This document shows, one piece after another, positions 2,646 to 15,054 of a DNA stretch of 64,000 nucleotides. The notes below the pieces were generated by a model. The model ran no database searches, was not told the origin of the DNA, and saw only the letters and a list, made by a program, of their open reading frames with translations. This DNA is from the human T2T-CHM13v2.0 reference genome, Homo sapiens, in the NCBI RefSeq assembly GCF_009914755.1, contig NC_060937.1; one strand, written 5' to 3'. The position numbers and the translations under genes were made by a program. The stretch's first letter is position 1; each line of letters opens with the position of its first letter.

Positions 2646-3290
2646 TTAAACAAACTGAAGTGAATTACACATCTAGCCTGCAGAAAAATAAATAGGAAAC
2701 AATACAGTCTGGCCTGTGTCACCCAGAAAAAGCTCAGTTTGGATTGAATCACTGCCCTGGGGAGTGTGAGGGGAAGGCCCAGCCTGTTGTTCTCCTTCCT
2801 GATGGGAAGGTGGTCACTGAGGGAAAAGATTTTCTTGGTTCTCTAGCCCTGATTTCACTTTGTAATCATCAAGGTGAACTTAAACACAAACACACTCCAG
2901 TGACCCCCATCTCAGACTGAGGAATCGGAGCACCCGGAAACAGGCCTGTGAGGATCAAACCTGTTGAGAAGTCCCAAGTGACTGGGCACCATAGATGCTC
3001 AGGAGTGGTGCAGGCCAGCTGCCTGGGACCCGAGGTCCAGCAGGTGCAATGTGCCCACATTAACTGTTGTTACCTCTACCCCCATGCCAACTATGACTGG
3101 ACTGCAGTGTTCCAACGAGAAGTGCCCTAAACTTAGCCATAATAAGTAATTTATTTGTAGATTCCTGAAGTACTGGGGTAGGGTGTGGGGTGCCTTTTTC
3201 TTATGATTACAGCTATGTTAACAATAGGGTTTTTTTATGAACCAATCTGTTGTTCATACTGAAGAATTGATGTAGCCCTTTTGTTTGCAG

Positions 3291-3394
3291 GCTGTGGAAA
3301 ATCTCTGTTCTCACAAAGTCTCCCCAATGCTCTACAAGCAACTGCGTCAGGCCTGTGAAGACCACGTCCAGGCACAGATCCTTCCGTTTAGAGA
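3291..3394 (+). CDS. CUL4A: Cullin-4A exon 3 ([35 protein letters not shown])
   Basis: tttgcag acceptor; 104 nt; translation matches CUL4A residues 89-123; ends at non-canonical U12 donor GA|ATATCCTTT. Confidence 0.97.
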
Positions 3395-3675
3395 ATATCC
3401 TTTTTTTGGTTCATAAAGTTTCTATTCATTATCTAAGTCTTTTAAAACTGAACATTATTATGATAAAGAGCTAATGAGTATCCTTAATATTAAAACAACA
3501 GCTTTTAAAGTTCTCTTTTATTTGATAGGTTTGTAAGCGAAATTTACCATTTAAATTATTTTGCTGATTTGAATTAAAGGGAAACCGTGTTCATTTATTG
3601 GGTATGGTTGAAGTATTTAGGAAATGTTCTGAAAAATGTCTTCAAGTTTGAGTATCCTTTATTCTAATAAACACC

Positions 3676-4183
3676 ATCTGCATTGGCTTTCTGTGATAGG
3701 CAACAAAGTCCCATCGACTTGGCGACTTATGGAGACACCCACTTATCAGCGCACAGTTGTGTCTGTCAGGAGGCCAGGCAGGATTCAGTGGATTCTATGC
3801 TCAGTCTCACGGGCAGAGTCAAGGTGTCAGCCAGGTTGGGGCCTCACCTGAGGTCTTTGCTAGCACGGGCAGGCAGTTGGCGGAAGCCAGTTCCTGTGGT
3901 AGTGGGACTGAGGGCCCTGCCTTCTGTCCCGTGTTGCTTGGTGTCACTCTCAGCTCCACATGCACAGGTCCTTGCCTCTCCTCTCACAGCACGACTCTTT
4001 TCTGCTTCTAGACCAGCAGGAGAATCTGCCTGTCTGACCTGCTGAGATAGGGCCTTATATGATGTAACCCGTAACCCAGTCAAGGAATGATGACCTTCGT
4101 ATTCACAGCCTCGTTCACAGTTGCGTGTGAGGCATCCTCCACGTGGGGACAGGGCAGGAGCATCTCAGAATTCTGCTGCCACA
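3676..4183 (-). mobile_element. MaLR LTR (MLT1-like), degenerate
   Basis: MLT1-like phrases (CACAGTTGTGTCTGTCAGGAGGCCAGGCA..GCTCAGTCTCAC..AGTCAAGGTGTCAGCCAGG; ends CATCTCAGAATTCTGCTGCCACA); by eye. Confidence 0.6.
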
Positions 4184-5900
4184 CCAGCTGTGACTCAGAC
4201 GTCTACAGGGGAGTCTCTGGGCTCCTTGGCATCCTATAGAAAATCCTTTAATCTGGACTCAATCTCATTCCCCAGCCTCCTCCCAGTACTGTAGCTGTCC
4301 ATGTGTCTCATTGGGTAGGAATTAGAAAGTAGAGTTTATAATTGCAGAAAATCTACTTGTGGCTGTACTTTTCTAGGCCTCCGTTTCTTCATGTGTAAAA
4401 TTAGGTGGTTTGTGTTTGCTTATTTCTAAGTGTTCTTCTAGTTCAAGGAAACTTCTGCTCCCCCATCTCCCTGATCTTGGGAAACTAAACCATTCTGAGT
4501 TCATTGGAAGGGTCCTCAGGGAATCTGCAGCAGTTGGTGCTGCTGAAGTTGAAGCACGTGACAGGGAAGCTGAAATGCAGGGTGAGAGGTCTCTGTTTAG
4601 ACAATCTCCACAGCACCCCGCACAGATGTGAGTGAAGTCGGTTCCAGCTCTGTTGTGCTGGCTTCTGTAAATACGCCTCTGCAGTGTTTTCCAGCAAAGC
4701 CCTTTCCTAAAGATCATGAGGTCGTTCAAGAGATCAGTGACCGCACACCACCTTTTGGAACCTGGCCAAAGTGCACCTTATCTCAGGAGGCGCCTGTGAG
4801 GGCGCACAGAAGCAGGCCCCGCCCCAGTGCCACGGCTCAGCAATGCGCTTCCAGGAACCTACGTTCCAGATGTTTCCATCCAAAAAGCGGCCTGACTCCT
4901 AGGCTTGGGGGAAGTCTTTAGCAGATGCCCAAGCCTTCTCCCAAAGACTTAGGCGTTTATGAGAGTCAGTAGGCGGTGATTGTTCCTACTCTAGTTGCTG
5001 TCCCAATTTACTTGAAAACGACTATCTGATTACCTGATCAAATGAATCTTTTGCCAGTTACTCCTACTCTGTGGGTTGACTAATGTGCCATCAGTTCACT
5101 CACTGCACAAGCACTTGCTTTCTACCTACTGCACTGGCACCGCAAAATGGAAAGTGACCCCCATGCCTGATTTCTACCCTCCAAGAAGTCGCAGGCTTAT
5201 GGGAGAGGCAGGGGAATTACTGTATTTCCCTGGTGCAGTGGCAAAACTGTGATTACAAAAATTATCATTTGGTTCATTAAAGGCAAAAGAAAAAAACACT
5301 ACCGTATTAAATGCCCTTATTAGTCATGAGACAAGATCTTGAGTTGAGAACTGCGCGTCAGGCCAGGAATGGTGGCATGTGAAGCATCTGGGGCAGAGCC
5401 TCCCAGAGGAGACCCTCCTGAAGGGATGGGGAGGATGCGCCCTCCTGTGGCTGTGGCACCAGAAGCAGAGCGTGGAGGGTGCTCTGGAAACCCCGAGCAG
5501 CGGGCACAACTAGAACTCCAGAGACCTGGTGGCCCTTAGGCTGTGATGCTAAGTTGCAGACTGAATTTGAATCTTTGTGGATACTACCAAGGAGTCAGAC
5601 TTCAGTCTGTGAGTATCCCAGAGTCCTCACAGGTTTTTTAAGCAAGAAACCAGAATTAGATTGTTCATGGAGGTCACTCTGGCAGAATGATGGGATAAGT
5701 TTACATATAGACCAGCACACCACAGCCTTCCATTGGGTCGGCACATGTTTTTAAGTATCTGTCATGTGCTAGGTATGATGCCAGGCCCTGGGAAAATAAA
5801 TCTGAGCAGAATGGGATTCTGTCCCTTTGGAGCTTAAACCCGAATGGCGGTGGCAAAAGCATCAGGATAAGCATTTATGCAGTGCTGTGATAAGGGTTTT

Positions 5901-6221
5901 TTTTGTTTTGTTTTTTTGTGTTATTTATTTATTTATTTTTGTGAGATGGAGTCTTGCTCTGTCACCCAGGCTAGAGTGCAGTGGCACGATCTCGGCTCAC
6001 TGCACCTCTCCCTCCTGGGTTCAAGCCATTCTCCTGCCTCGGCCTTTCCAGTAGCTGGGATTACAGGCGCCCACCACCATGCTCGGCTAATTTTTGTATT
6101 TTTAGTAGAGACGGGGTTTCACCACATTGGCCAGGCTGGTCTCGAACTCCTGACCTCGTGATCCACCTGCCTCAGCCTCCCAAAGTGCTGGGATTACAGG
6201 CGTGAGCCACCGCGTCTGGCC
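5901..6221 (-). mobile_element. Alu (AluS-like) with 15-bp TSD
   Basis: Reverse Alu; TSD TGTGATAAGGGTTTT at 5886-5900 and 6222-6236. Confidence 0.95.
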
Positions 6222-6778
6222 TGTGATAAGGGTTTTCAAAGGTTCAGATAAGCTCCTGGGACCTAAAGAAAGAGCAGCTAGCCCACCTGTGTAGGGGAGC
6301 ATTGCAGGGGCGAAGCGATGTCTGGGCCATGTCCTAAAGGATGGATGAGGAAGTGGCAGGCGCTGTGGGATGCCAAGGTGGCACAGGCCAGGGAGCAGCG
6401 TGGGCAGCCCTGGCGCTGAGGAAGCTTACTGGGCAGAAGAGCCAGGTATGCTGCTGGGTGTGGGAGAGTTGACCACTGACAGGATCCCTAAAGGGGAAAA
6501 TGAGAGGAAGGTGGATGCTGAATTGTGGAGGAGCCTTTGTTGAACCAAGAGGTTGAGGTTTATCTGAAGGTGGAGATTGAGCCAAGGTGTTCAGGCACAG
6601 CATGGCTGGGTTATGTTGGTAAGAAGTTAGTGTGCCTGTGTGTGTGCACTGTGGTGTGAGGGGTCACACCACAATGGTTTGACTGGGCAGCAAAACCACA
6701 GGGTGGAATGGCAGCATCCTGCCAGCAAACCTCTTATGGTTAGAGGGAAAGGATCTGACTGCTGTGGAAGGATGAACC

Positions 6779-6888
6779 AGACACGGATTGAGGCGGGGAG
6801 GGTCTGTCGTGGTCACGTTGATTTGGAAGGAGGAGACACGGATTGAGGCGGGGAGGGTCTGTCGTGGTCATGTTGATTTGGAAGGAGG
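6779..6888. repeat. 55-bp tandem duplication (2 copies)
   Basis: AGACACGGATTGAGGCGGGGAGGGTCTGTCGTGGTCA(C/T)GTTGATTTGGAAGGAGG twice. Confidence 0.9.
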
Positions 6889-6992
6889 TGAGGAGGCACT
6901 CAGGTAGAGATGCCTGTTGTGCATTTGGGGCTGGAGACACAGATCCAGTGGCTCCAGACATGGATGAGATGCCCAGGAAAAATGAGCAGAGT

Positions 6993-7295
<303 letters not shown>

Positions 7296-7735
7296 TCAGG
7301 AAGATGAGAGGAGAACCTGGAGAGTCATCTTGTGGGAATCGAGGGGCGAGTTTAATATGGCAGGCGGCTTAGTGACCAGTAAGTAGAGTCTGAGGGGATG
7401 ATGAGACCAGGAAGTGGCTGGTTACTGTGATGAAGGCTTTTAGGCTACATTCGTACGTTAACCTAGTAAACATGGGGTGTTTCTGTCCAACTCAGCACTG
7501 TGCGTTGGGGACCAGGGACAGGCATGAATGGCACGGGTCCTGCTCTCAAAAAGCTTGTTTTTGCTGGAAGAGAGTTCTGACCCAGCCCAGTCTCACATGG
7601 GGAAATGTTAATGTGATGGCAGATGCTGAGATACTGTGTGGCAGGGAGTATTCCAAGGTCTGCATATTCAGATTTCTTTTGCCTCTGGGATATTCCAGTA
7701 CTTCAAGTAACTCTACTTTCTAAGATTTAAGTAAT

Positions 7736-8042
7736 TTGTTGTTGTTGTTGTTGTTTTGAGACGGAGTTTCGCTCTTAATTGCCCAGGCTAGAGTGCAATG
7801 GCGCAATCTTGGCTCACCGCAACAACCTCCACTCCTGGGTTCAAGCGATTCTCTTGTCTCAGCCTCCCGAGTAGCTGGGATTACAGGAATGCGCCACCAC
7901 GCCTGGCTAATTTTGTATTTTTAGTAGAAACGGGGTTTCTCCACATTGGTCAGGCTGGTCTCGAATTTGCGATCTTGGATTATCTGCCTGCTTCGACCTC
8001 CCAAAGTGTTGGGATTACAGGCGTGAGCCACCATGCCCGGCC
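7736..8042 (-). mobile_element. Alu (AluS-like), (TTG)n tail
   Basis: Reverse Alu; TSD AGATTTAAGTAAT. Confidence 0.95.
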
Positions 8043-8416
8043 AGATTTAAGTAATGTTATGTACCGATTATATTTTGATTGTATGCTGATATTAGATTAT
8101 AGATGAAACCCATCAGATGTGCAGGTAGAAAAAGGGCTTTTGTGGAATTGAGTCATTCACTACCATCTTCTTCGTTTACCACATCCGTTTTCTTGTCTCA
8201 CATGTTTGATAAACTCTGCACTTAGCTGTCCGTTTCAAAATAGATAGCTGCTCTTGGTGACGTCCCTTCCTCAAAATAAAGGCCATTTGTACCCTTGCAC
8301 TCATACACATGCTCAGCCACAGGCAGCTGCTGCAGAACCCACACCACATGCTGCAGGACCACGTGCCACCCAGCCAAGCTACGTGGGCAACAGGAGCTCT
8401 TCAAAAATGTCAAGCC

Positions 8417-8763
<347 letters not shown>

Positions 8764-11088
8764 TCACATTTTCCTTCCCCTGGTTCACCTTGACAGCATT
8801 GCAGCTCTGGTCAGCCACAGAATGCCAGGCAGTGGTGGACACCATGATAGCCGTGTGGTCAGAAGGGAAGGGCACGGGAGTGAGCTGGGAACCTTGGCTG
8901 TTGGGGAAGTTGCAAAGCTCCAGTTTCCTCTAAGTGTGCCTTTATGATCCGCACTGGCGACAGCAGGCTTTGTCTTTCCTTAGAAAGACTTTGTGCCTGT
9001 TCTCACTTGACCAGATATCGTGTACGGAGCACTTGCTGGCAGTAGGCCAAGCTCTGCACATTCATGAATTGCTTTGTCTCACAACACCCTGAGCCGTAGG
9101 TATCTTTATTGACCATATTTTCCAGATGAAGAGACGAAAGCCCAAGAGAACCCTGTTAATGCTCGGCCAGATCAGAGGAGACAAAACAAGCACCCCTGCC
9201 TTCATGGGTTGTGTGGATGAATGAGGGTCGGCCTAGGGCTGTCCCCTCGCGGTCTGTCCGGTCTGTCGGTACAGGCAGCAGATGGGCCACTTGTTCCTGG
9301 AATTGCAGAAGCAGATAACCAAGTGTAGAAAATGTATGTATCCCTCTTCTACCCCAACAGAAGCACCGTCTTTTTGCTTTTTCTTTTTTTTTTTAGTTAC
9401 AGATATGATAGGTAGGTTTTTTTCTATGGTGTAAGCATTTCTGCTGTTGGATTTTGTTTGCTGTTTGAAGACCTGCCTAACTCGTCTCAGTAGGCTGTAT
9501 AAATCGTTTAATGAAGATTGGCCCTTTTCTGAAGTGAGAAAAAGGATGGTTGCTGAAGAACCTATCTCGAGAATACACTATTGACAGACTCACGGTGTCT
9601 GTGTGTCTCACATCCTGGAATTACTTGCACACCATTGTGGCTATGTGTTATATCCCAGAATATGGAATTGATTTTGATGTTTAGAAGGCCAAAGCTTACT
9701 TAGTAAATGCCACACTGATTTTAGCTTACCATTTTGTAGTTTTTTTCTGTGGGAAATAACAAAAAAATTATTGATTGAGGATCTATATTGATTTTACAGA
9801 GCTATTTTAGAGGAAGTATTTCTCATTTAATGAACACTTTACATTGGACTTTCCATCTTAACAAGACACTGCCCCAGGTGGAACTCTGTCTTCACAACAC
9901 CTGAGCTGCCCAGTGGTGTCAGATTGACTGGTGTCAGTTTAACCCCGTTAAGTTTAAAGGATCTGTGCACCCTCATCTGGAAGCAAAGCTCCGCCTTCGG
10001 CTGCTGTGGCCCGCCTGCCCGCAGAGAGGCTTGCTGGGAGGTCCAGGCCGCAGTTCCCGTCCAGCTCCTGGAGTCAGAGCTGCAGGATGGCTGTTGGGGG
10101 TCCTTGAAGCCTGTCCAGATGCACTTGGGATGGGTTTTTTTGTTTTGTCCAGACTGTTTCTGTAGATTCCTAATATAATGAGCCATTATAATTTTGAACA
10201 ATTTGTAAAGAGTACTTCCAGAGGAACCTGTTAACCATTCAACCATTAGGTCTTTGCTGTAAGTGTCTGTTTTTAATTTTCTGGCAGTGCTTCTGAGAAT
10301 TCTGCAAAGCCTCAAGAAAAAATAGAGTAAGCTGTCTTAGCCAGGCCCCTGTAGCTTTGGTCACAGCACTTCCTGGTGTGACAAGGACTCAGACCCCCCG
10401 GGAGCCCCTTGGCTATCCTCAGCACTGTTTATTCCTCCTCAGGCTCTGCCTGGCACCCTACCCTCCCTGGCACTCTTTCTTTGTCAGGCCACTCGTTGCC
10501 ACCCTGAGACTCCAGCTCATGTCTGATTTGTGCATCCTACTTAACTGATGTGTTTTTCCTCCTCTCTGTGTGTGAGGATGTTGTCACCACCTCACATTGG
10601 CTCTTGAGTGTGAAGTGTCTTGCTGCACGGCAGAAACAGACCTAGAGAAGTCCCTTGGTTTGGCCAGTATTGTGTTGCTGACAGGCGGTGGATCAAGAGT
10701 TAAAATGTAGGAAGTCCATGTTCTGTCCCCTTTGACAAGCCATTTTCTTAATCTGTACAAAGGGAACAATGTCTGCACCACGAGGTTGGGGAGATTTTCA
10801 GTGAGAGTGGATGTGAAGAGTGTTTCGTAAACCATAAAGCAGTTTATTGTCATTGATGATTCTCAGCTTTGCATGAACCTGAGGGACACCAGACCACTTG
10901 CTCTAGGAGCCCATATTCTGGGTTCTTTGTCCTAAACTACTTTTTGGGCCTTTTCCTAAAAATACACATTCTAAGAGTCAAGGTAAGAGTGTTCCTAATT
11001 TGGTGCATGGATGAGAGTTCATGTTAGTTTTCATTGAGGCTGGAAGTTAAACCTGAGCCATTTTCCTGTCCAGCTGCACTTTGCCACA

Positions 11089-11215
11089 GGCTGGGCACAC
11101 TGGCTCATACCTGTAATCCTAGCACTTTGGGAGACTGAGGAGGATTACTTAAGACCACGTGTTCAAGACCAGCCTAGGAGTATAGTGAGGTGCCATCTCT
11201 TTTAATTTTTAAAAA
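11089..11215 (+). mobile_element. Alu monomer (FLAM-like)
   Basis: Left-arm only: GGCTGGGCACACTGGCTCATACCTGTAATCC... Confidence 0.75.
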
Positions 11216-11529
11216 ATAGTCCTAGTGACTCTTACCAGGCCAGTCACCATCTCCAGGAGCCCCCCTGTGGGAGTATGTTCAGTGTCTGCCCTTTGTGAAG
11301 TGGGGCCTTTTGTCCCGCCACCTACCCCCAGGGCACTTAAGGCCTGGGTGTGTTTCTGCCGGCAGGGACTTGAAGGTGTCTGGCAGTGAAGGAAGGAGAG
11401 GATGAAGGGAGGCTGGAGAGGGAGTGGCGAGCGGCCAGAGGCAGGCGGGGCCGTGGGAAGGGAAAGCAGCACAGGCAAGCTGAGTGCACATTGGTGATGA
11501 GATACAGAGATCCATGATTGAACTTCTAG

Positions 11530-11884
11530 TGTATCTTAGCCCACTGGGGCTGCCATGACAAAACACCATAGAGTGTGGCTCATCAACAGCAGGAGTCTGT
11601 TGCTCACAGCTCTGGAGGCTGGAGGTCCAGGGTCAAGGCACTGGCAGATTGCATGTCTGGTGGGGCCCCGCTTCCTGGTCCATAGCCAGCACCTTCTCAC
11701 TGCATCCTTATGTGGTGGAAGAGGCAGGGGAGCTCTCTGGGGTCTCTTTTGTAACCCCATTCTTGAGGCTTGTCCACTCTCATGACCTAATCACCTCCCA
11801 GAGGCCCTGCCTCCTAACACCATTACCGTAGAGTGAGAGCTTCAGCCTATGAATTTTGGGGGGACATGAACATTCAAGACTAAT
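11530..11884 (-). mobile_element. MaLR LTR (MLT1A/B-like)
   Basis: GGCTGCCATGACAAAACACCATAGA..CTCACAGCTCTGGAGGCTGG..ATGACCTAATCACCTCCCA..GGGGGACATGAACATTCA. Confidence 0.8.
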
Positions 11885-11969
11885 ATTCTTTCAGTATTCC
11901 AGTTACTGAATGGTGTGTAGTATTCAGTGGAGAAGGTAGCTGAAATTAAGGGGTTAAAATTGTAATAAT

Positions 11970-12277
<308 letters not shown>

Positions 12278-12322
12278 TTAAATTGGCCAGCATTTTTAAA
12301 GTTTTCCTTAGCAGATCTGTAC

Positions 12323-12392
12323 AGACTCACTAGATAGTGTTTTATTTTTAAAGAAGATTAACACGTGCTGGCAGGACCACTGCAGACAAATG
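12323..12392 (+). CDS. CUL4A: Cullin-4A exon 4 ([23 protein letters not shown])
   Basis: AC acceptor, GTAAGC donor; 70 nt; frame continuous. Confidence 0.97.
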
Positions 12393-13185
12393 GTAAGCTT
12401 GTTCACTTTTTCATCAAAACACGACCTCATCCATCTTCCCTCACCCACATGATTGAGAGCTGAGACATAGAAGTTCTGTTGAGGATTCTGTCTGTGTTCA
12501 GTGCTGTGGTTGAACAGCACGATGAGAAAAGCAGGGAAGGTGAACTCCTCAGCTCCTGTGAGAGGGCACCACTGACCCTCTTGGCCTTCAGGTCCACAGT
12601 CACAGTCCGCAGTGGTGACAGGGTTCTTAGATGCCTGCATGGGTCTCTAAATGTCTCTTTAAGCACAGTTTACTCCTCAGAATCTAGCCTGAATCCCAGG
12701 TCTTTCCTGCAGCTGCACAACCAGCGTCTTAGGCTTTGTAGATGTCTTGGCTTTGACTTGACGTCATGTATACATTTTTAGTGTGACCTGGCCGTTAATT
12801 ACTTAAGTGAGAGAACAGACCGTATTAATAGCTTTCCTAAGTAGGTTGAAATCTTCCGTTTTCTAAATGATATCAGTAGGAGACGATGGGTGTATTTCTT
12901 TTCTGGGCCAGGTAGCTGGCAGCTGCTAGAGCTCGCTGAGGGTCTGTTGGGAAGGGTTTGGTGAGATGCGTTCACAAGTCTCCCCAGCCAGGTAGTGGGC
13001 TCGATGGTAGGAGCACAGGACAGGACCAGGGATCATCCTGCCTCCCTCACTCTGCTCGCAACGCAGAGTCAGAGACACACGTCCAAGAGCCTCATCATGT
13101 AACAGGAACTCAGGTTTTAAAAGCTAAGTGCATCTCCCTAATCTAGTAAGAAGTAGCACATCAGTCAAAAAAATGACCAAATTTA

Positions 13186-13479
13186 GGCCGGGCGCGGTGG
13201 CTCACGCCTGTAATCCCAGCTCTTTGGGAGGCCGAGGCGGGCGGATCACGAGGTCAGGAGATCGAGACCATCCTGGCTAACACGGTGAAACCACGTCTCT
13301 ACTGAAAATACAAAAAAAAAAAAAATTAACCGGGTGGGGTGGTGGGCACCTGTAGTCCCAGCTACTCGGGAGGCTGAGGCAGGAGAATGGTGTGAACCCA
13401 GGAGGCGGAGCTTGCACATCACGCCACCGCACTCCAGCCTGGGCGACAGAGCGAGACTCCGTCTCAAGACAAAAAAAAG
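13186..13479 (+). mobile_element. Alu (AluY-like) with 17-bp TSD
   Basis: TSD AAAAATGACCAAATTTA 13169-13185 / 13480-13496. Confidence 0.95.
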
Positions 13480-13768
13480 AAAAATGACCAAATTTAAAAG
13501 ATATCCTTTAGGCCTTGGCTGAACACAGGATCTCTTTAAAAAGAAAAAAAAGATACCATTTTAGGCTAAGTGCGTTAAAATTCCTACAGTCAGATTTACA
13601 ATATTAAAGAGATGGAAATCACATACCAAGGGGACAAAATTAACTTTAGAAAAAAAAAATAAAACATGAGGGCTGTGGTGGACAGGAAACAGCTGTTGGA
13701 TTTGAGACAGCTAGCATGGAGTTAAAAGGCCTGATCTTTCATATTTTGCTAGTAGAATTCATAAGTAA

Positions 13769-13867
<99 letters not shown>

Positions 13868-15054
13868 TGAGTGTCCTCACAGCGCAGAGCTGCGTCTTCC
13901 CTGCAGCTGATGCTTTTCGTCCCGTTTGTGTCTTCCGCAGGCTAAGATGGTAAAGTGTGTGTGATTACTTGTGCCTTCCTTTCTTCAGCCAAAATCATTA
14001 ACGTGAACGTAGGAGTCCAGGTGGGTCTTAGCCTTGAAACACCAGGTGTCTAGCCAGCAGCAAGGAGTGGAGCAGGAAGCTCGGACAGGCGGCTGACTTT
14101 GGTCATGAGGGTGAAGACAGAGGGTCTTGGTTTCTCTCTGACGACTGGAGGTTGAGCCTGGAGCGGCTCTTTCCAGCGCTGCAGTTGAAACTCGGAGAAA
14201 GACTGCCTGCTGCCCGTGGGGTCGCAGCCCTGAGGCTGTGCGTCCCCTGTGGAATGGCTTGCTCAGCCTCCCGGCCTCCTGAGCACATAGCACTCATCGT
14301 CCGTCATCTTTCGGGGACTGTATACACCAGGGGTTCTGGGGCCTTTCCTCAGCAGCGTTCGCGGCCACGGACCCCACATGTCCTCTGCTGACCCCTGTGT
14401 GTCCTCTGTGGCCACCCCATGGCGCTGAATCCTGCCGCCTCCTGCAAGCCGACTTTGGACAAAAGCTGTGTCCGGTCTCACCGTCTGATTTGTCTTGTTC
14501 TCTGTTAATGTAGTGTTTCATTCTTCTCACATTCATACATAAAAGTGATGTCGTGCCTTCTCATGAGCTTTAAACCCAAGTTCTTTAAAATGTGCCTGCT
14601 TTTCCTACCCCACCCACTGGGCACGCTGACCCAAGGCAATGTGATTTCTGCTTTCGCCATGTAGAGATTGCTCTTGTCTGAGATGTCGGTGACCTGCCAG
14701 TTACCAAATCCAGCAAGCATTTTTGTCCTTATTTTATACAACATCTATACAATTTTGGACACCCTGTCCTTGTTGAAGCTCCCATTAATGCCATTTGCCC
14801 TTCTAACTTCCTCATGGAACTCCCAAACATCTCCTAGTAGGCATCCATGTGGTCTACGAGAAGGCAAACGCTGCACAGAAAAGACAGCCTGTGTTCCAGG
14901 AAAGAATGGAGATGATAAAAGTGATCATAGCAGATTATTTAGCATTTGCTCTGTGCAAGGGACTGTTTCCTACTAATGTATTTAATCCCTAGAGCAGCTC
15001 TGTGGCGTGGCCATTGTCACTCCTATTTTATACAAACTAAGGCACATAAGTTAA

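What the first reader, a model, noticed from the sequence alone, without database searches (positions are those of the whole stretch)
3395..3660. Cluster of U12 signals suggests a hidden U12-flanked poison exon or U11-binding sensor
Seen: besides the real donor ATATCCTTT (3395), two more U12 donor motifs follow within 270 nt, GTATCCTTA (3478) and a perfect GTATCCTTT (3652), both in the context TGA-GTATCCTT. The 3478 motif overlaps a U12 branch-like TCCTTAA (3481-3487) with AC/AC/AG ends at 3496, 3499 and 3501, i.e. at U12-typical spacing. This could define a ~100-nt U12 mini-intron, then a ~150-nt exon (~3497/3500/3502-3651), then a second U12 intron from 3652. All three entry points hit an in-frame TAA within about 13 codons. 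Established: tandem U12 5' splice-site motifs (USSE) in SNRNP48 and RNPC3 bind U11 and drive feedback splicing. Inference: CUL4A may carry an undescribed minor-spliceosome-responsive NMD switch or decoy-donor array. RTATCCTT is expected only about once per 33 kb at uniform base composition.
Basis: partly seen in the sequence, partly recalled or inferred. Interest (0 to 1): 0.8.

Follow-up and report, generated by a model that had tools for sequence, protein, structure and literature searches.

The report
Extra minor-splice donor motifs in CUL4A
Just inside the known minor-spliceosome (U12-type) intron of CUL4A lie two more near-perfect copies of the minor donor signal; the cluster is real and unlikely by chance, but nothing yet shows that the cell uses it.

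Summary
ATATCCTTT (3395, the annotated AT-AC donor), GTATCCTTA (3478) and GTATCCTTT (3652) are all there. So are the overlapping branch-like TCCTTAA (3481-3487) and the AC/AC/AG ends at 3496/3499/3501. Every proposed entry point meets an in-frame TAA within 2-13 codons.

Two extra motifs within 258 sites of a donor have P of about 0.6-1.1e-4. That gives 0.04-0.08 such cases expected among ~700 minor introns. Both extras share the 11-mer TGAGTATCCTT.

The interpretation stays untested. The true USSEs of RNPC3 and SNRNP48, read from the same genome, have two motifs 15 and 18 nt apart, 44 and about 63 nt after a U2-type acceptor. The CUL4A spacings are 83 and 174 nt with no such acceptor, so it is not a USSE. 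The hub's RefSeq table has no exon boundary at 3477, 3497-3502 or 3651. No paper found describes the cluster.

Conservation, RNA-seq junctions and U11 binding could not be checked with these tools.

Most likely (about 0.5) these are cryptic pseudo-donors in a single-copy AT-rich block, possibly spread by a small local duplication and out-competed by the exon-defined authentic donor. A U11-binding regulatory array or a U12-flanked poison exon remains possible (about 0.3 together).

The parts
3291..3394 (+). CUL4A exon 3 of the selected transcript (104 nt, ends in codon phase 2)
   Evidence: Hub annotation. One search translates it as [34 protein letters not shown] and joins it in frame to exon 4.
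3395..3403 (+). Authentic AT-AC U12-type donor, ATATCCTTT
   Evidence: CUL4A is listed with a U12 intron/twintron in PMC3564746 (Table 1) and PMC8329584 (passage).
3400..3700 (+). AT-rich block (GC 24-30%) between flanks of 50-60% GC, single copy in the genome
   Evidence: composition; A 0.31, T 0.41; only the self match at E<=10.
3478..3486 (+). First extra U12 donor-like motif, GTATCCTTA (8 of 8 core, ninth base A)
3481..3487 (+). U12 branch-like TCCTTAA, overlapping the 3478 motif
   Evidence: It is one of only 2 TCCTTRA sites on the + strand in 3300-13900.
3495..3501 (+). Candidate U12 acceptor ends: AC (ends 3496), AC (ends 3499), AG (ends 3501), at 9, 12 and 14 nt from A3487
   Evidence: The optimum of 11-13 nt is taken from PMC3584512 (passage).
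3500..3651 (+).
   Evidence: No annotation or read support is available.
3652..3660 (+). Second extra U12 donor-like motif, GTATCCTTT (9 of 9)
3475..3493 (+). Copy 1 of a 19-nt direct repeat, TGAGTATCCTTAATATTAA
   Evidence: family D1.
3649..3667 (+). Copy 2 of the 19-nt direct repeat (16 of 19 identical), 174 nt downstream of copy 1
   Evidence: family D1.
3517..3529 (+). 13-nt repeat TTTATTTGATAGG. It also reads as a U2-type acceptor-like site (pyrimidine run, AG ending at 3528).
   Evidence: (family D3).
3688..3700 (+). Second copy of the 13-nt repeat (11 of 13), 171 nt downstream, colinear with the 19-mer pair
   Evidence: family D3.
3489..3494 (+). ATTAAA poly(A)-signal-like hexamer, starting 11 nt after the start of the 3478 motif
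3666..3671 (+). AATAAA poly(A)-signal-like hexamer, starting 14 nt after the start of the 3652 motif, followed by the T/GT-rich TTGGCTTTCTGTG
12304..12311 (+). Authentic U12 branch site TTCCTTAG (branch A 12310)
12321..12326 (+). Three adjacent acceptor dinucleotides, AC|AG|AC. They give exon starts at 12323 (selected transcript), 12325 and 12327 (other RefSeq transcripts).
   Evidence: and the hub table. One search shows that 12325 and 12327 give stops after 4 and 2 codons.

Best explanation
The intron between CUL4A exons 3 and 4 (3395-12322) is a known AT-AC U12-type intron. The motifs at 3478 and 3652 are most likely cryptic pseudo-donors of the GT subtype. They lie in a 300-nt, single-copy, AT-rich block at the start of the intron. 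The second may have arisen from the first through a small local duplication, or both may be relics of an older ~172-nt duplication.

Inferred mechanism: the authentic donor wins because it closes a 104-nt exon behind a U2-type acceptor, which gives it exon definition. Using 3478 or 3652 would need exons of 187 or 361 nt.

Any occasional use of the extra motifs puts a stop codon into the message. This holds whether they act as alternative donors or through the mini-intron-plus-exon route. The products would be removed as nonsense transcripts, so the motifs cost little and can persist.

Shown here: the motifs, their geometry, the stop codons and the statistics. Inferred: that they are rarely or never used and carry no dedicated function.
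For: - The hub's RefSeq table (11 transcripts) has no exon boundary at 3477, 3497/3500/3502 or 3651.
- The two extras share a 19-mer (16 of 19). A 13-mer pair (11 of 13) follows colinearly at nearly the same spacing, 174 and 171 nt. The 61-nt alignment that includes the motif beats 1000 of 1000 shuffles. This points to common descent of the two extras, which lowers the count of independent coincidences from two to one. P(at least 1 extra in 258 sites) is about 1.1-1.5%.
- The block is 72% A+T with 41% T, which raises the local motif rate to about 1 per 17 kb.
- The geometry does not match the two true USSEs.
- The fold is no better than shuffles (z = +0.66), and 0 Rfam families match at E<=1.
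- A review states that alternative splicing involving U12-type introns is 'almost entirely absent' apart from error-prone acceptor choice (PMC3584512, passage).
- The paralogue CUL4B has the same ATATCCTTT donor. Its only other RTATCCTT inside the ~515-nt intron is the one overlapping its branch site.
Against: - Two extra consensus motifs so close to a real minor donor are improbable: P about 0.6-1.1e-4, or 0.04-0.08 expected among ~700 minor introns.
- Outside the motif the two 'copies' do not align better than shuffles: 181 of 500 and 146 of 1000 shuffles score as well. If there was a duplication it is either tiny or old. In an old one, an 11 of 11 identical TGAGTATCCTT in both copies would itself suggest constraint.
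- Consensus minor donors upstream of an intact branch site and acceptor would be expected to compete. Their persistence could therefore reflect selection.
- Each extra motif is followed within 11-14 nt by a poly(A)-signal hexamer, a pattern this explanation leaves as coincidence.
Confidence: 0.5

Rival explanations
1. The cluster is a U11-binding intronic array that acts without being spliced. U11/U12 di-snRNPs bind the two GT motifs and change the fate of the pre-mRNA. They could raise the local snRNP concentration for the authentic donor, compete with it as decoys, or hold unspliced RNA in the nucleus as USSE-bound U11 does for RNPC3. CUL4A output would then follow minor-spliceosome abundance.
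For: - The cluster is statistically unusual, and both extras share an identical 11-mer.
- 3652 matches the consensus at 9 of 9 positions. Both carry the same TATCCTT core as the four true USSE half-sites and the CUL4A and CUL4B donors.
- There is precedent that U12 donor motifs can bind U11 without being used, and can cause nuclear retention (PMC5473595 and PMC8329584, passages).
Against: - Spacing of 83 and 174 nt contrasts with 15 and 18 nt in the true USSEs, and no U2-type acceptor lies 44-63 nt upstream.
- The 2021 review says SNRNP48 and RNPC3 are the only known cases (PMC8329584, passage).
- There are no binding or conservation data.
- CUL4A is not a minor-spliceosome component, so there is no feedback logic.
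Confidence: 0.2
2. The extra motifs are used as real splice sites and produce regulated nonsense isoforms. There are two routes. In the first reader's route, an AT-AC mini-intron 3395-3499 is removed, a ~152-nt exon 3500-3651 is included, and a GT-AG U12 intron runs from 3652 to 12324. In the simpler route, 3478 or 3652 serve as alternative donors that extend exon 3 by 83 or 257 nt. Both routes give a premature stop and decay of the message.
For: - The sequence geometry is complete. The branch-like TCCTTAA lies 12 nt from AC 3499, inside the 11-13 nt optimum (PMC3584512).
- In-frame stops follow within 2-13 codons, or at 3414 for exon extension.
- An AG at 12323-12324 suits GT-subtype donors, and other RefSeq transcripts have an exon start at 12325 (hub table).
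Against: - The hub's RefSeq table shows no exon with these boundaries.
- The 3478 donor-like motif and the branch-like site overlap, so the two roles exclude each other on one RNA.
- The AG at 12324 is 14 nt from the branch A, just past the optimum.
- Alternative splicing within U12 introns is reported as rare (PMC3584512, passage).
- No retrocopy or other genomic copy carries the putative exon.
- No literature was found.
Confidence: 0.12
3. The motifs guard intronic poly(A) signals. U11 bound at each GT motif suppresses cleavage and polyadenylation at the hexamer just downstream, by analogy with U1 snRNP. When U11 is scarce, transcripts would end early in the intron.
For: - ATTAAA starts 11 nt after the 3478 motif start, and AATAAA starts 14 nt after the 3652 motif start.
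- P that both motifs have a hexamer starting at +8..+20 is about 0.002 under a local model. This is post hoc and partly tied to the shared 19-mer.
- The block holds 3 hexamers against 1.1 expected.
- A T/GT-rich stretch follows AATAAA.
Against: - AT-rich sequence makes such hexamers common.
- The hub's table lists no transcript end here.
- No paper found links U11 to suppression of polyadenylation.
- A good U1-type site (GTAAGC at 3533) could do that job.
Confidence: 0.05

Closest known systems
USSE (U11 snRNP-binding splicing enhancer) of SNRNP48 and RNPC3
   Same: Both have more than one consensus U12-type donor motif (RTATCCTTT) in non-coding RNA on the sense strand, and use of the nearby signals would give unproductive mRNA. 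The core TATCCTT is identical in all sites compared.
   Different: - In the true USSEs the two motifs start 15 nt (RNPC3) and 18 nt (SNRNP48) apart and lie 44 and about 63 nt after a U2-type acceptor. Here the spacings are 83 and 174 nt with no comparable acceptor.
- The USSE is described as ultraconserved and lies in genes for U11/U12 proteins (PMC5473595, PMC8329584). Conservation here is unknown, and CUL4A is not such a gene.
- Here one of the three motifs is a working donor.
Cryptic (pseudo) splice sites inside introns
   Same: These are consensus-like signals absent from annotated transcripts, lying near an authentic site, and any use of them would give nonsense transcripts.
   Different: U12-type donor consensus is long and rare, about 1 per 24 kb per strand. 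Two within 258 nt of a true minor donor is therefore far less expected than for the degenerate U2-type signals.
CUL4A twintron and error-prone U12 acceptor choice
   Same: It is the same intron. The 3' end carries AC|AG|AC, with RefSeq exon starts at 12323, 12325 and 12327. CUL4A is listed as a twintron with a 149-aa U2 variant (PMC3564746 Table 1; PMC8329584).
   Different: The published twintron concerns a U2-type intron enclosing the U12 intron. It does not concern extra U12 donor motifs inside it. The details in that paper's supplement could not be opened.

Membership tests
U12-type intron, AT-AC subtype (3395-12322) | Donor matching the consensus ATATCCTTT (consensus recalled; the logo figure of PMC3584512 could not be viewed) | tested here: met
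   ATATCCTTT at 3395-3403.
U12-type intron, AT-AC subtype (3395-12322) | Branch site TCCTTRAY-like, 11-13 nt from the acceptor, intron ending in AC | tested here: met
   TTCCTTAG at 12304-12311. A12310 lies 12 nt from the C at 12322. The optimum is from PMC3584512.
U12-type intron, AT-AC subtype (3395-12322) | Listed as a minor intron in the literature | tested here: met
   PMC3564746 Table 1, PMC8329584 passage, and PMC12956336 passages (mouse Cul4a mis-spliced after U11 loss).
USSE | Tandem repeat of two U12 donor motifs set close together | tested here: not met
   True USSEs: 15 nt (RNPC3, L033 562/577) and 18 nt (SNRNP48, L035 8782/8800) start to start. CUL4A: 83 and 174 nt.
USSE | A U2-type acceptor with a pyrimidine tract a few tens of nt upstream, which the element activates | tested here: not met
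   44 nt (RNPC3) and about 63 nt (SNRNP48). Upstream of 3478 the only AGs lie behind A-rich sequence. The nearest good acceptor-like site before 3652 ends at 3528, 123 nt away. This was judged by eye, with no scoring matrix.
USSE | Deep evolutionary conservation of the element and its spacing | not testable with these tools
   No other vertebrate genome is held. states that the genome has no relatives here.
USSE | U11 snRNP binding without use as a donor | not testable with these tools
   Duplex energies with the 5' end of U11 (from L038) do not discriminate. True sites score -4.9 to -8.5 kcal/mol, the extras -5.3 and -6.2, and 1,619 of 8,911 intron 17-mers score <= -8.
Functional U12-type donor (3478, 3652) | Consensus RTATCCTTT | tested here: met
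   3652 matches 9 of 9. 3478 matches 8 of 9 (ninth base A).
Functional U12-type donor (3478, 3652) | A compatible branch site and AG acceptor downstream for the GT subtype | tested here: met
   The AG at 12323-12324 lies 14 nt from A12310. The exon start at 12325 is annotated (hub table).
Functional U12-type donor (3478, 3652) | Observed exon junctions | not testable with these tools
   No RNA-seq is available. The hub's RefSeq table lists no such exon end.
Poison (NMD) cassette exon 3497/3500/3502-3651 | Flanking splice signals and an in-frame premature stop | tested here: met
   the signals are present, and stops follow after 13, 12 and 2 codons.
Poison (NMD) cassette exon 3497/3500/3502-3651 | Inclusion in transcripts, stabilised when NMD is blocked, and conservation | not testable with these tools
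   No expression or comparative data are available. One search found 0 papers on CUL4A plus 'poison exon'.

The most novel reading that the evidence does not exclude
CUL4A carries a new kind of U11-responsive intronic module, distinct from the USSE. Two dispersed GT-type minor donor motifs share the 11-mer TGAGTATCCTT, and each is followed within 11-14 nt by a poly(A)-signal hexamer. The module would read out U11/U12 abundance. With ample U11, the motifs are occupied and either mask the intronic poly(A) signals or divert splicing to nonsense isoforms. With scarce U11, transcripts are cut short or retained. This would tie the level of a cullin-RING ligase scaffold to minor-spliceosome activity. 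It would be the third U11-binding regulatory element known in human, and the first outside genes for the snRNP's own proteins.
Probability: 0.12. Interest if true: 0.8.

Novelty: new member of a known kind. Interest (0 to 1): 0.35.

Why it matters
Minor introns are thought to act as rate-limiting switches. So far only two elements, the USSEs of SNRNP48 and RNPC3, are known to use unspliced U12 donor motifs as U11 sensors.

A functional cluster in CUL4A would show that such sensing reaches ordinary target genes. It would link minor-spliceosome activity to CRL4 ubiquitin-ligase dosage, which matters for DNA-damage response and meiosis. Cul4a is among the genes mis-spliced, and lowered at the protein level, after U11 loss in mouse testis (PMC12956336, passages).

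If the motifs are inert, the case still has value. It shows that even perfect 9-mer minor donors can sit unused a few hundred bases from a true one. That bears on how minor donors are chosen and on predictors of cryptic U12 splicing in disease variants.

Tried and rejected
- **Local duplication of the exon-3/donor junction as the source of the 3652 motif.** Smith-Waterman score 19 against a shuffle mean of 16.8; 58 of 300 shuffles did as well. Not supported.
- **Tandem duplication of a ~172-nt unit.** The alignment including the motif is significant (0 of 1000 shuffles for the 61-nt stretch, 1 of 1000 for the full 174 nt). Without the motif it is not (146 of 1000 and 470 of 1000; 181 of 500). 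The first comparison overlapped itself and was discarded.
- **Interspersed repeat origin.** The 318-nt block finds only itself in the genome at E<=10. The 410-nt query found itself and the CUL4B exon. The tool skips very common words, so an old diverged repeat is not excluded.
- **Structured RNA.** The fold gives z = +0.66, and 69 of 100 shuffles fold as well. Rfam gives 0 matches at E<=1 in 3000-4300. No inverted repeats were found.
- **U11 duplex energy as a test of binding.** Uninformative.
- **Tight tandem pairs as a mark of USSE-like elements genome-wide.** There are 1,396 pairs with gaps of 0-30 nt against 1,524 for the reversed control. Many come from a repeated 20-mer, GTATCCTTTGTAATATCCTT. 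Pair counts alone say nothing.
- **A general test of whether true minor donors are followed by extra motifs more often than chance.** Not feasible, because no list of minor introns is held and pattern searches list only the first 100 places.
- **Literature.** CUL4A with 'U12-type' found 4 papers, with 'minor intron' 3, with 'minor spliceosome' 5 and with 'poison exon' 0. 'U12-type 5' + cryptic + decoy + U11 found 0. Telescripting + U11 + minor intron found 9; only the eLife paper's passages were read, and they held nothing relevant.
- **Sources that could not be reached.**
The twintron table S1 and the event tables of PMC8034651 and PMC12956336 may name CUL4A junctions and could not be seen.
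  - PMC4829294, on USSE distance constraints, is not held.

Full report
**What is in the sequence**

The annotated CUL4A exon 3 (3291-3394) is followed by ATATCCTTT at 3395. The intron ends ...TTCCTTAGcagatctgtAC at 12322, with branch A 12310 lying 12 nt from the end. This is a textbook AT-AC U12-type intron.

CUL4A appears as a minor-intron gene and twintron in PMC3564746 (Table 1, whole text read) and PMC8329584 (passage). Mouse Cul4a is among the genes mis-spliced after U11 loss (PMC12956336, passages).

Two more U12 donor-like motifs follow on the same strand: GTATCCTTA at 3478 and GTATCCTTT at 3652. Both are preceded by TGA. The 3478 motif overlaps TCCTTAA (3481-3487). Counting from A3487, AC ends at 3496 (9 nt), AC at 3499 (12 nt) and AG at 3501 (14 nt). 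The published optimum is 11-13 nt (PMC3584512).

- Entry at 3497 gives a stop after 13 codons.
- Entry at 3500 gives a stop after 12 codons.
- Entry at 3502 gives a stop after 2 codons.
- Plain read-through stops after 7 codons, at TAA 3414.

**Is it more than chance?**

At window level it is not. There are 7 matches on both strands against 3.4 expected, and 7 of 100 shuffles reach 7.

At cluster level it is. The genome holds 262,025 RTATCCTT, or 4.2e-5 per site per strand. Motif pairs with gaps of 60-90 nt number 479, against 1,009 for the reversed control. That gives a conditional rate of 5.9e-5 per site.

The probability of at least two further motifs in the next 258 sites is:
- 5.8e-5 at the genome rate
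- 1.1e-4 at the empirical pair rate
- 1.1e-4 under a local Markov-1 model trained on the AT-rich block itself
- 1.6e-5 under a model trained on the whole intron

With about 700 minor introns (PMC3728624, passage), 0.04-0.08 such cases are expected by chance genome-wide.

The two extras also share the 11-mer TGAGTATCCTT. It accounts for 1,764 of the 262,025 motifs, 0.67%.

**Surroundings**

The motifs lie in a sharply bounded AT-rich block. GC is 24-30% across 3400-3700 and 50-60% on both sides. The block is single copy in the genome at the tool's sensitivity. It shows no RNA structure beyond shuffles and no Rfam match.

The repeat finder reports a 19-mer pair at 3475 and 3649 (16 of 19 identical). 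It also reports a 13-mer pair at 3517 and 3688 (11 of 13 identical). The spacings are nearly equal, 174 and 171 nt. This hints that the two GT motifs descend from one.

The evidence for that is thin. The alignment including the motif beats all 1000 shuffles. Without the motif it does not, with 146 of 1000 shuffles doing as well. If one motif was copied from the other, only one chance occurrence is needed, at P about 1.1-1.5%. If the duplication is old, the perfect 11-mer in both copies would itself suggest constraint. I cannot separate these two readings.

Each GT motif is followed by a poly(A)-signal hexamer. ATTAAA starts at +11 from the first motif and AATAAA at +14 from the second. The block holds 3 such hexamers against 1.1 expected. 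This was noticed post hoc and may mean nothing in AT-rich DNA.

**Comparison with the USSE**

I read the two true USSEs from the same genome.

- The RNPC3 element is GTATCCTTTcttgtcGTATCCTTT. Its motifs start 15 nt apart, and the first lies 44 nt after the acceptor ...ctgttcttctttag. I confirmed the locus as RNPC3 through an upstream exon that matches PDB 3egn and 5obn, 'RNA-binding protein 40', at E = 5e-24.
- The SNRNP48 element is GTATCCTTTttgcaaatgATATCCTTT. Its motifs start 18 nt apart, about 63 nt after ttttcag. I found it by locating the zf-U11-48K exon on chromosome 6.

In CUL4A the spacings are 83 and 174 nt. No pyrimidine-rich acceptor lies a few tens of nt upstream of either extra motif. 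The nearest good one ends at 3528, 123 nt before 3652 (judged by eye). Two defining features of the USSE are therefore tested and not met. Conservation and U11 binding could not be tested.

The cluster may still work like a U11 sensor, but it is not a member of that family.

**The paralogue**

CUL4B (chrX, L002, minus strand of the locus) keeps the same ATATCCTTT donor. Its intron is only ~515 nt and ends in AG. Its branch site reads ATATCCTTAAC, 12 nt upstream of that AG. No further donor-like motif lies inside the intron. The paralogue therefore gives no support for an ancestral cluster. Introns this diverged say little either way.

**Use in transcripts**

The hub's RefSeq table lists no exon boundary at 3477, 3497/3500/3502 or 3651. 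It does list exon starts at 12325 and 12327. These correspond to the AG and second AC of the AC|AG|AC acceptor run. With the 3394 donor, both give stops after 4 and 2 codons. This fits the reported error-prone acceptor choice of U12 introns (PMC3584512, passage).

The AG at 12324 would be the natural partner of a GT-subtype donor, so the proposed 3652-to-12324 intron is possible in principle.

The U11-like motif at 3478 and the U12 branch-like site at 3481-3487 overlap, so they cannot both be engaged on the same RNA.

**Literature**

Four CUL4A searches and two on cryptic or decoy U12 donors and on U11 with telescripting found no description of this cluster, of a CUL4A poison exon, or of U11-dependent control of polyadenylation.

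Supplementary tables that may list CUL4A junctions could not be opened. These belong to PMC3564746, PMC8034651 and PMC12956336.

**Verdict**

The proposed functions are sequence-compatible but have no support from annotation or print, and the USSE analogy fails on geometry.

My best reading, at about 0.5, is that these are cryptic pseudo-donors, possibly related by a small duplication. The exon-defined authentic donor out-competes them, and they are harmless because any use yields nonsense transcripts.

The alternatives I keep open are:
- a U11-binding array that is not spliced (0.2)
- U11-dependent masking of the adjacent poly(A) signals (0.05)

Cross-species conservation and junction reads under NMD block would settle most of this quickly.

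Noticed in passing
window 12321-12326: The acceptor of the minor intron is a run AC|AG|AC. RefSeq exon starts at 12323, 12325 and 12327 use all three. With the 3394 donor, the 12325 and 12327 starts shift the frame and give stops after 4 and 2 codons.
   Followed up: partly
L002 (chrX, CUL4B), minus strand, about 993-1511: The CUL4B intron at the homologous position has an ATATCCTTT donor but ends in AG. AT-AG is a combination the review calls disfavoured. Its branch site reads ATATCCTTAAC, so it also scores as a donor-like motif.
   Followed up: partly
window 3489-3494, 3573-3578, 3666-3671: Three poly(A)-signal hexamers lie in the 300-nt AT-rich block against 1.1 expected. Two of them start 11 and 14 nt after the extra donor-like motifs, and the last is followed by a T/GT-rich stretch.
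   Followed up: partly
window 3527-3538: An acceptor-like site (ttctcttttatttgatAG, ending at 3528) sits 4 nt upstream of a good U1-type donor (GTAAGC at 3533), between the two extra motifs.
   Followed up: no
window 13501-13509: A fourth sense-strand ATATCCTTT lies in the next intron, just after the repeat masked at 13178-13492. All 4 of the + strand matches in the 64-kb window fall within 10 kb around the minor intron. The other 3 of the 7 matches are on the minus strand.
   Followed up: no
genome-wide (one search list, chr1): Many tight pairs of donor-like motifs are copies of one 20-mer, GTATCCTTTGTAATATCCTT and close variants. This is evidently a dispersed repeat family. It makes USSE-like tandem pairs common in the genome: 1,396 against 1,524 for the reversed control.
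   Followed up: no
L002 2056-2063 (minus strand): A further GTATCCTT lies on the CUL4B sense strand in the intron upstream of the homologous exon, inside what looks like an interspersed repeat. This makes 3 sense-strand matches in 3.1 kb against 0.21 expected for both strands.
   Followed up: no
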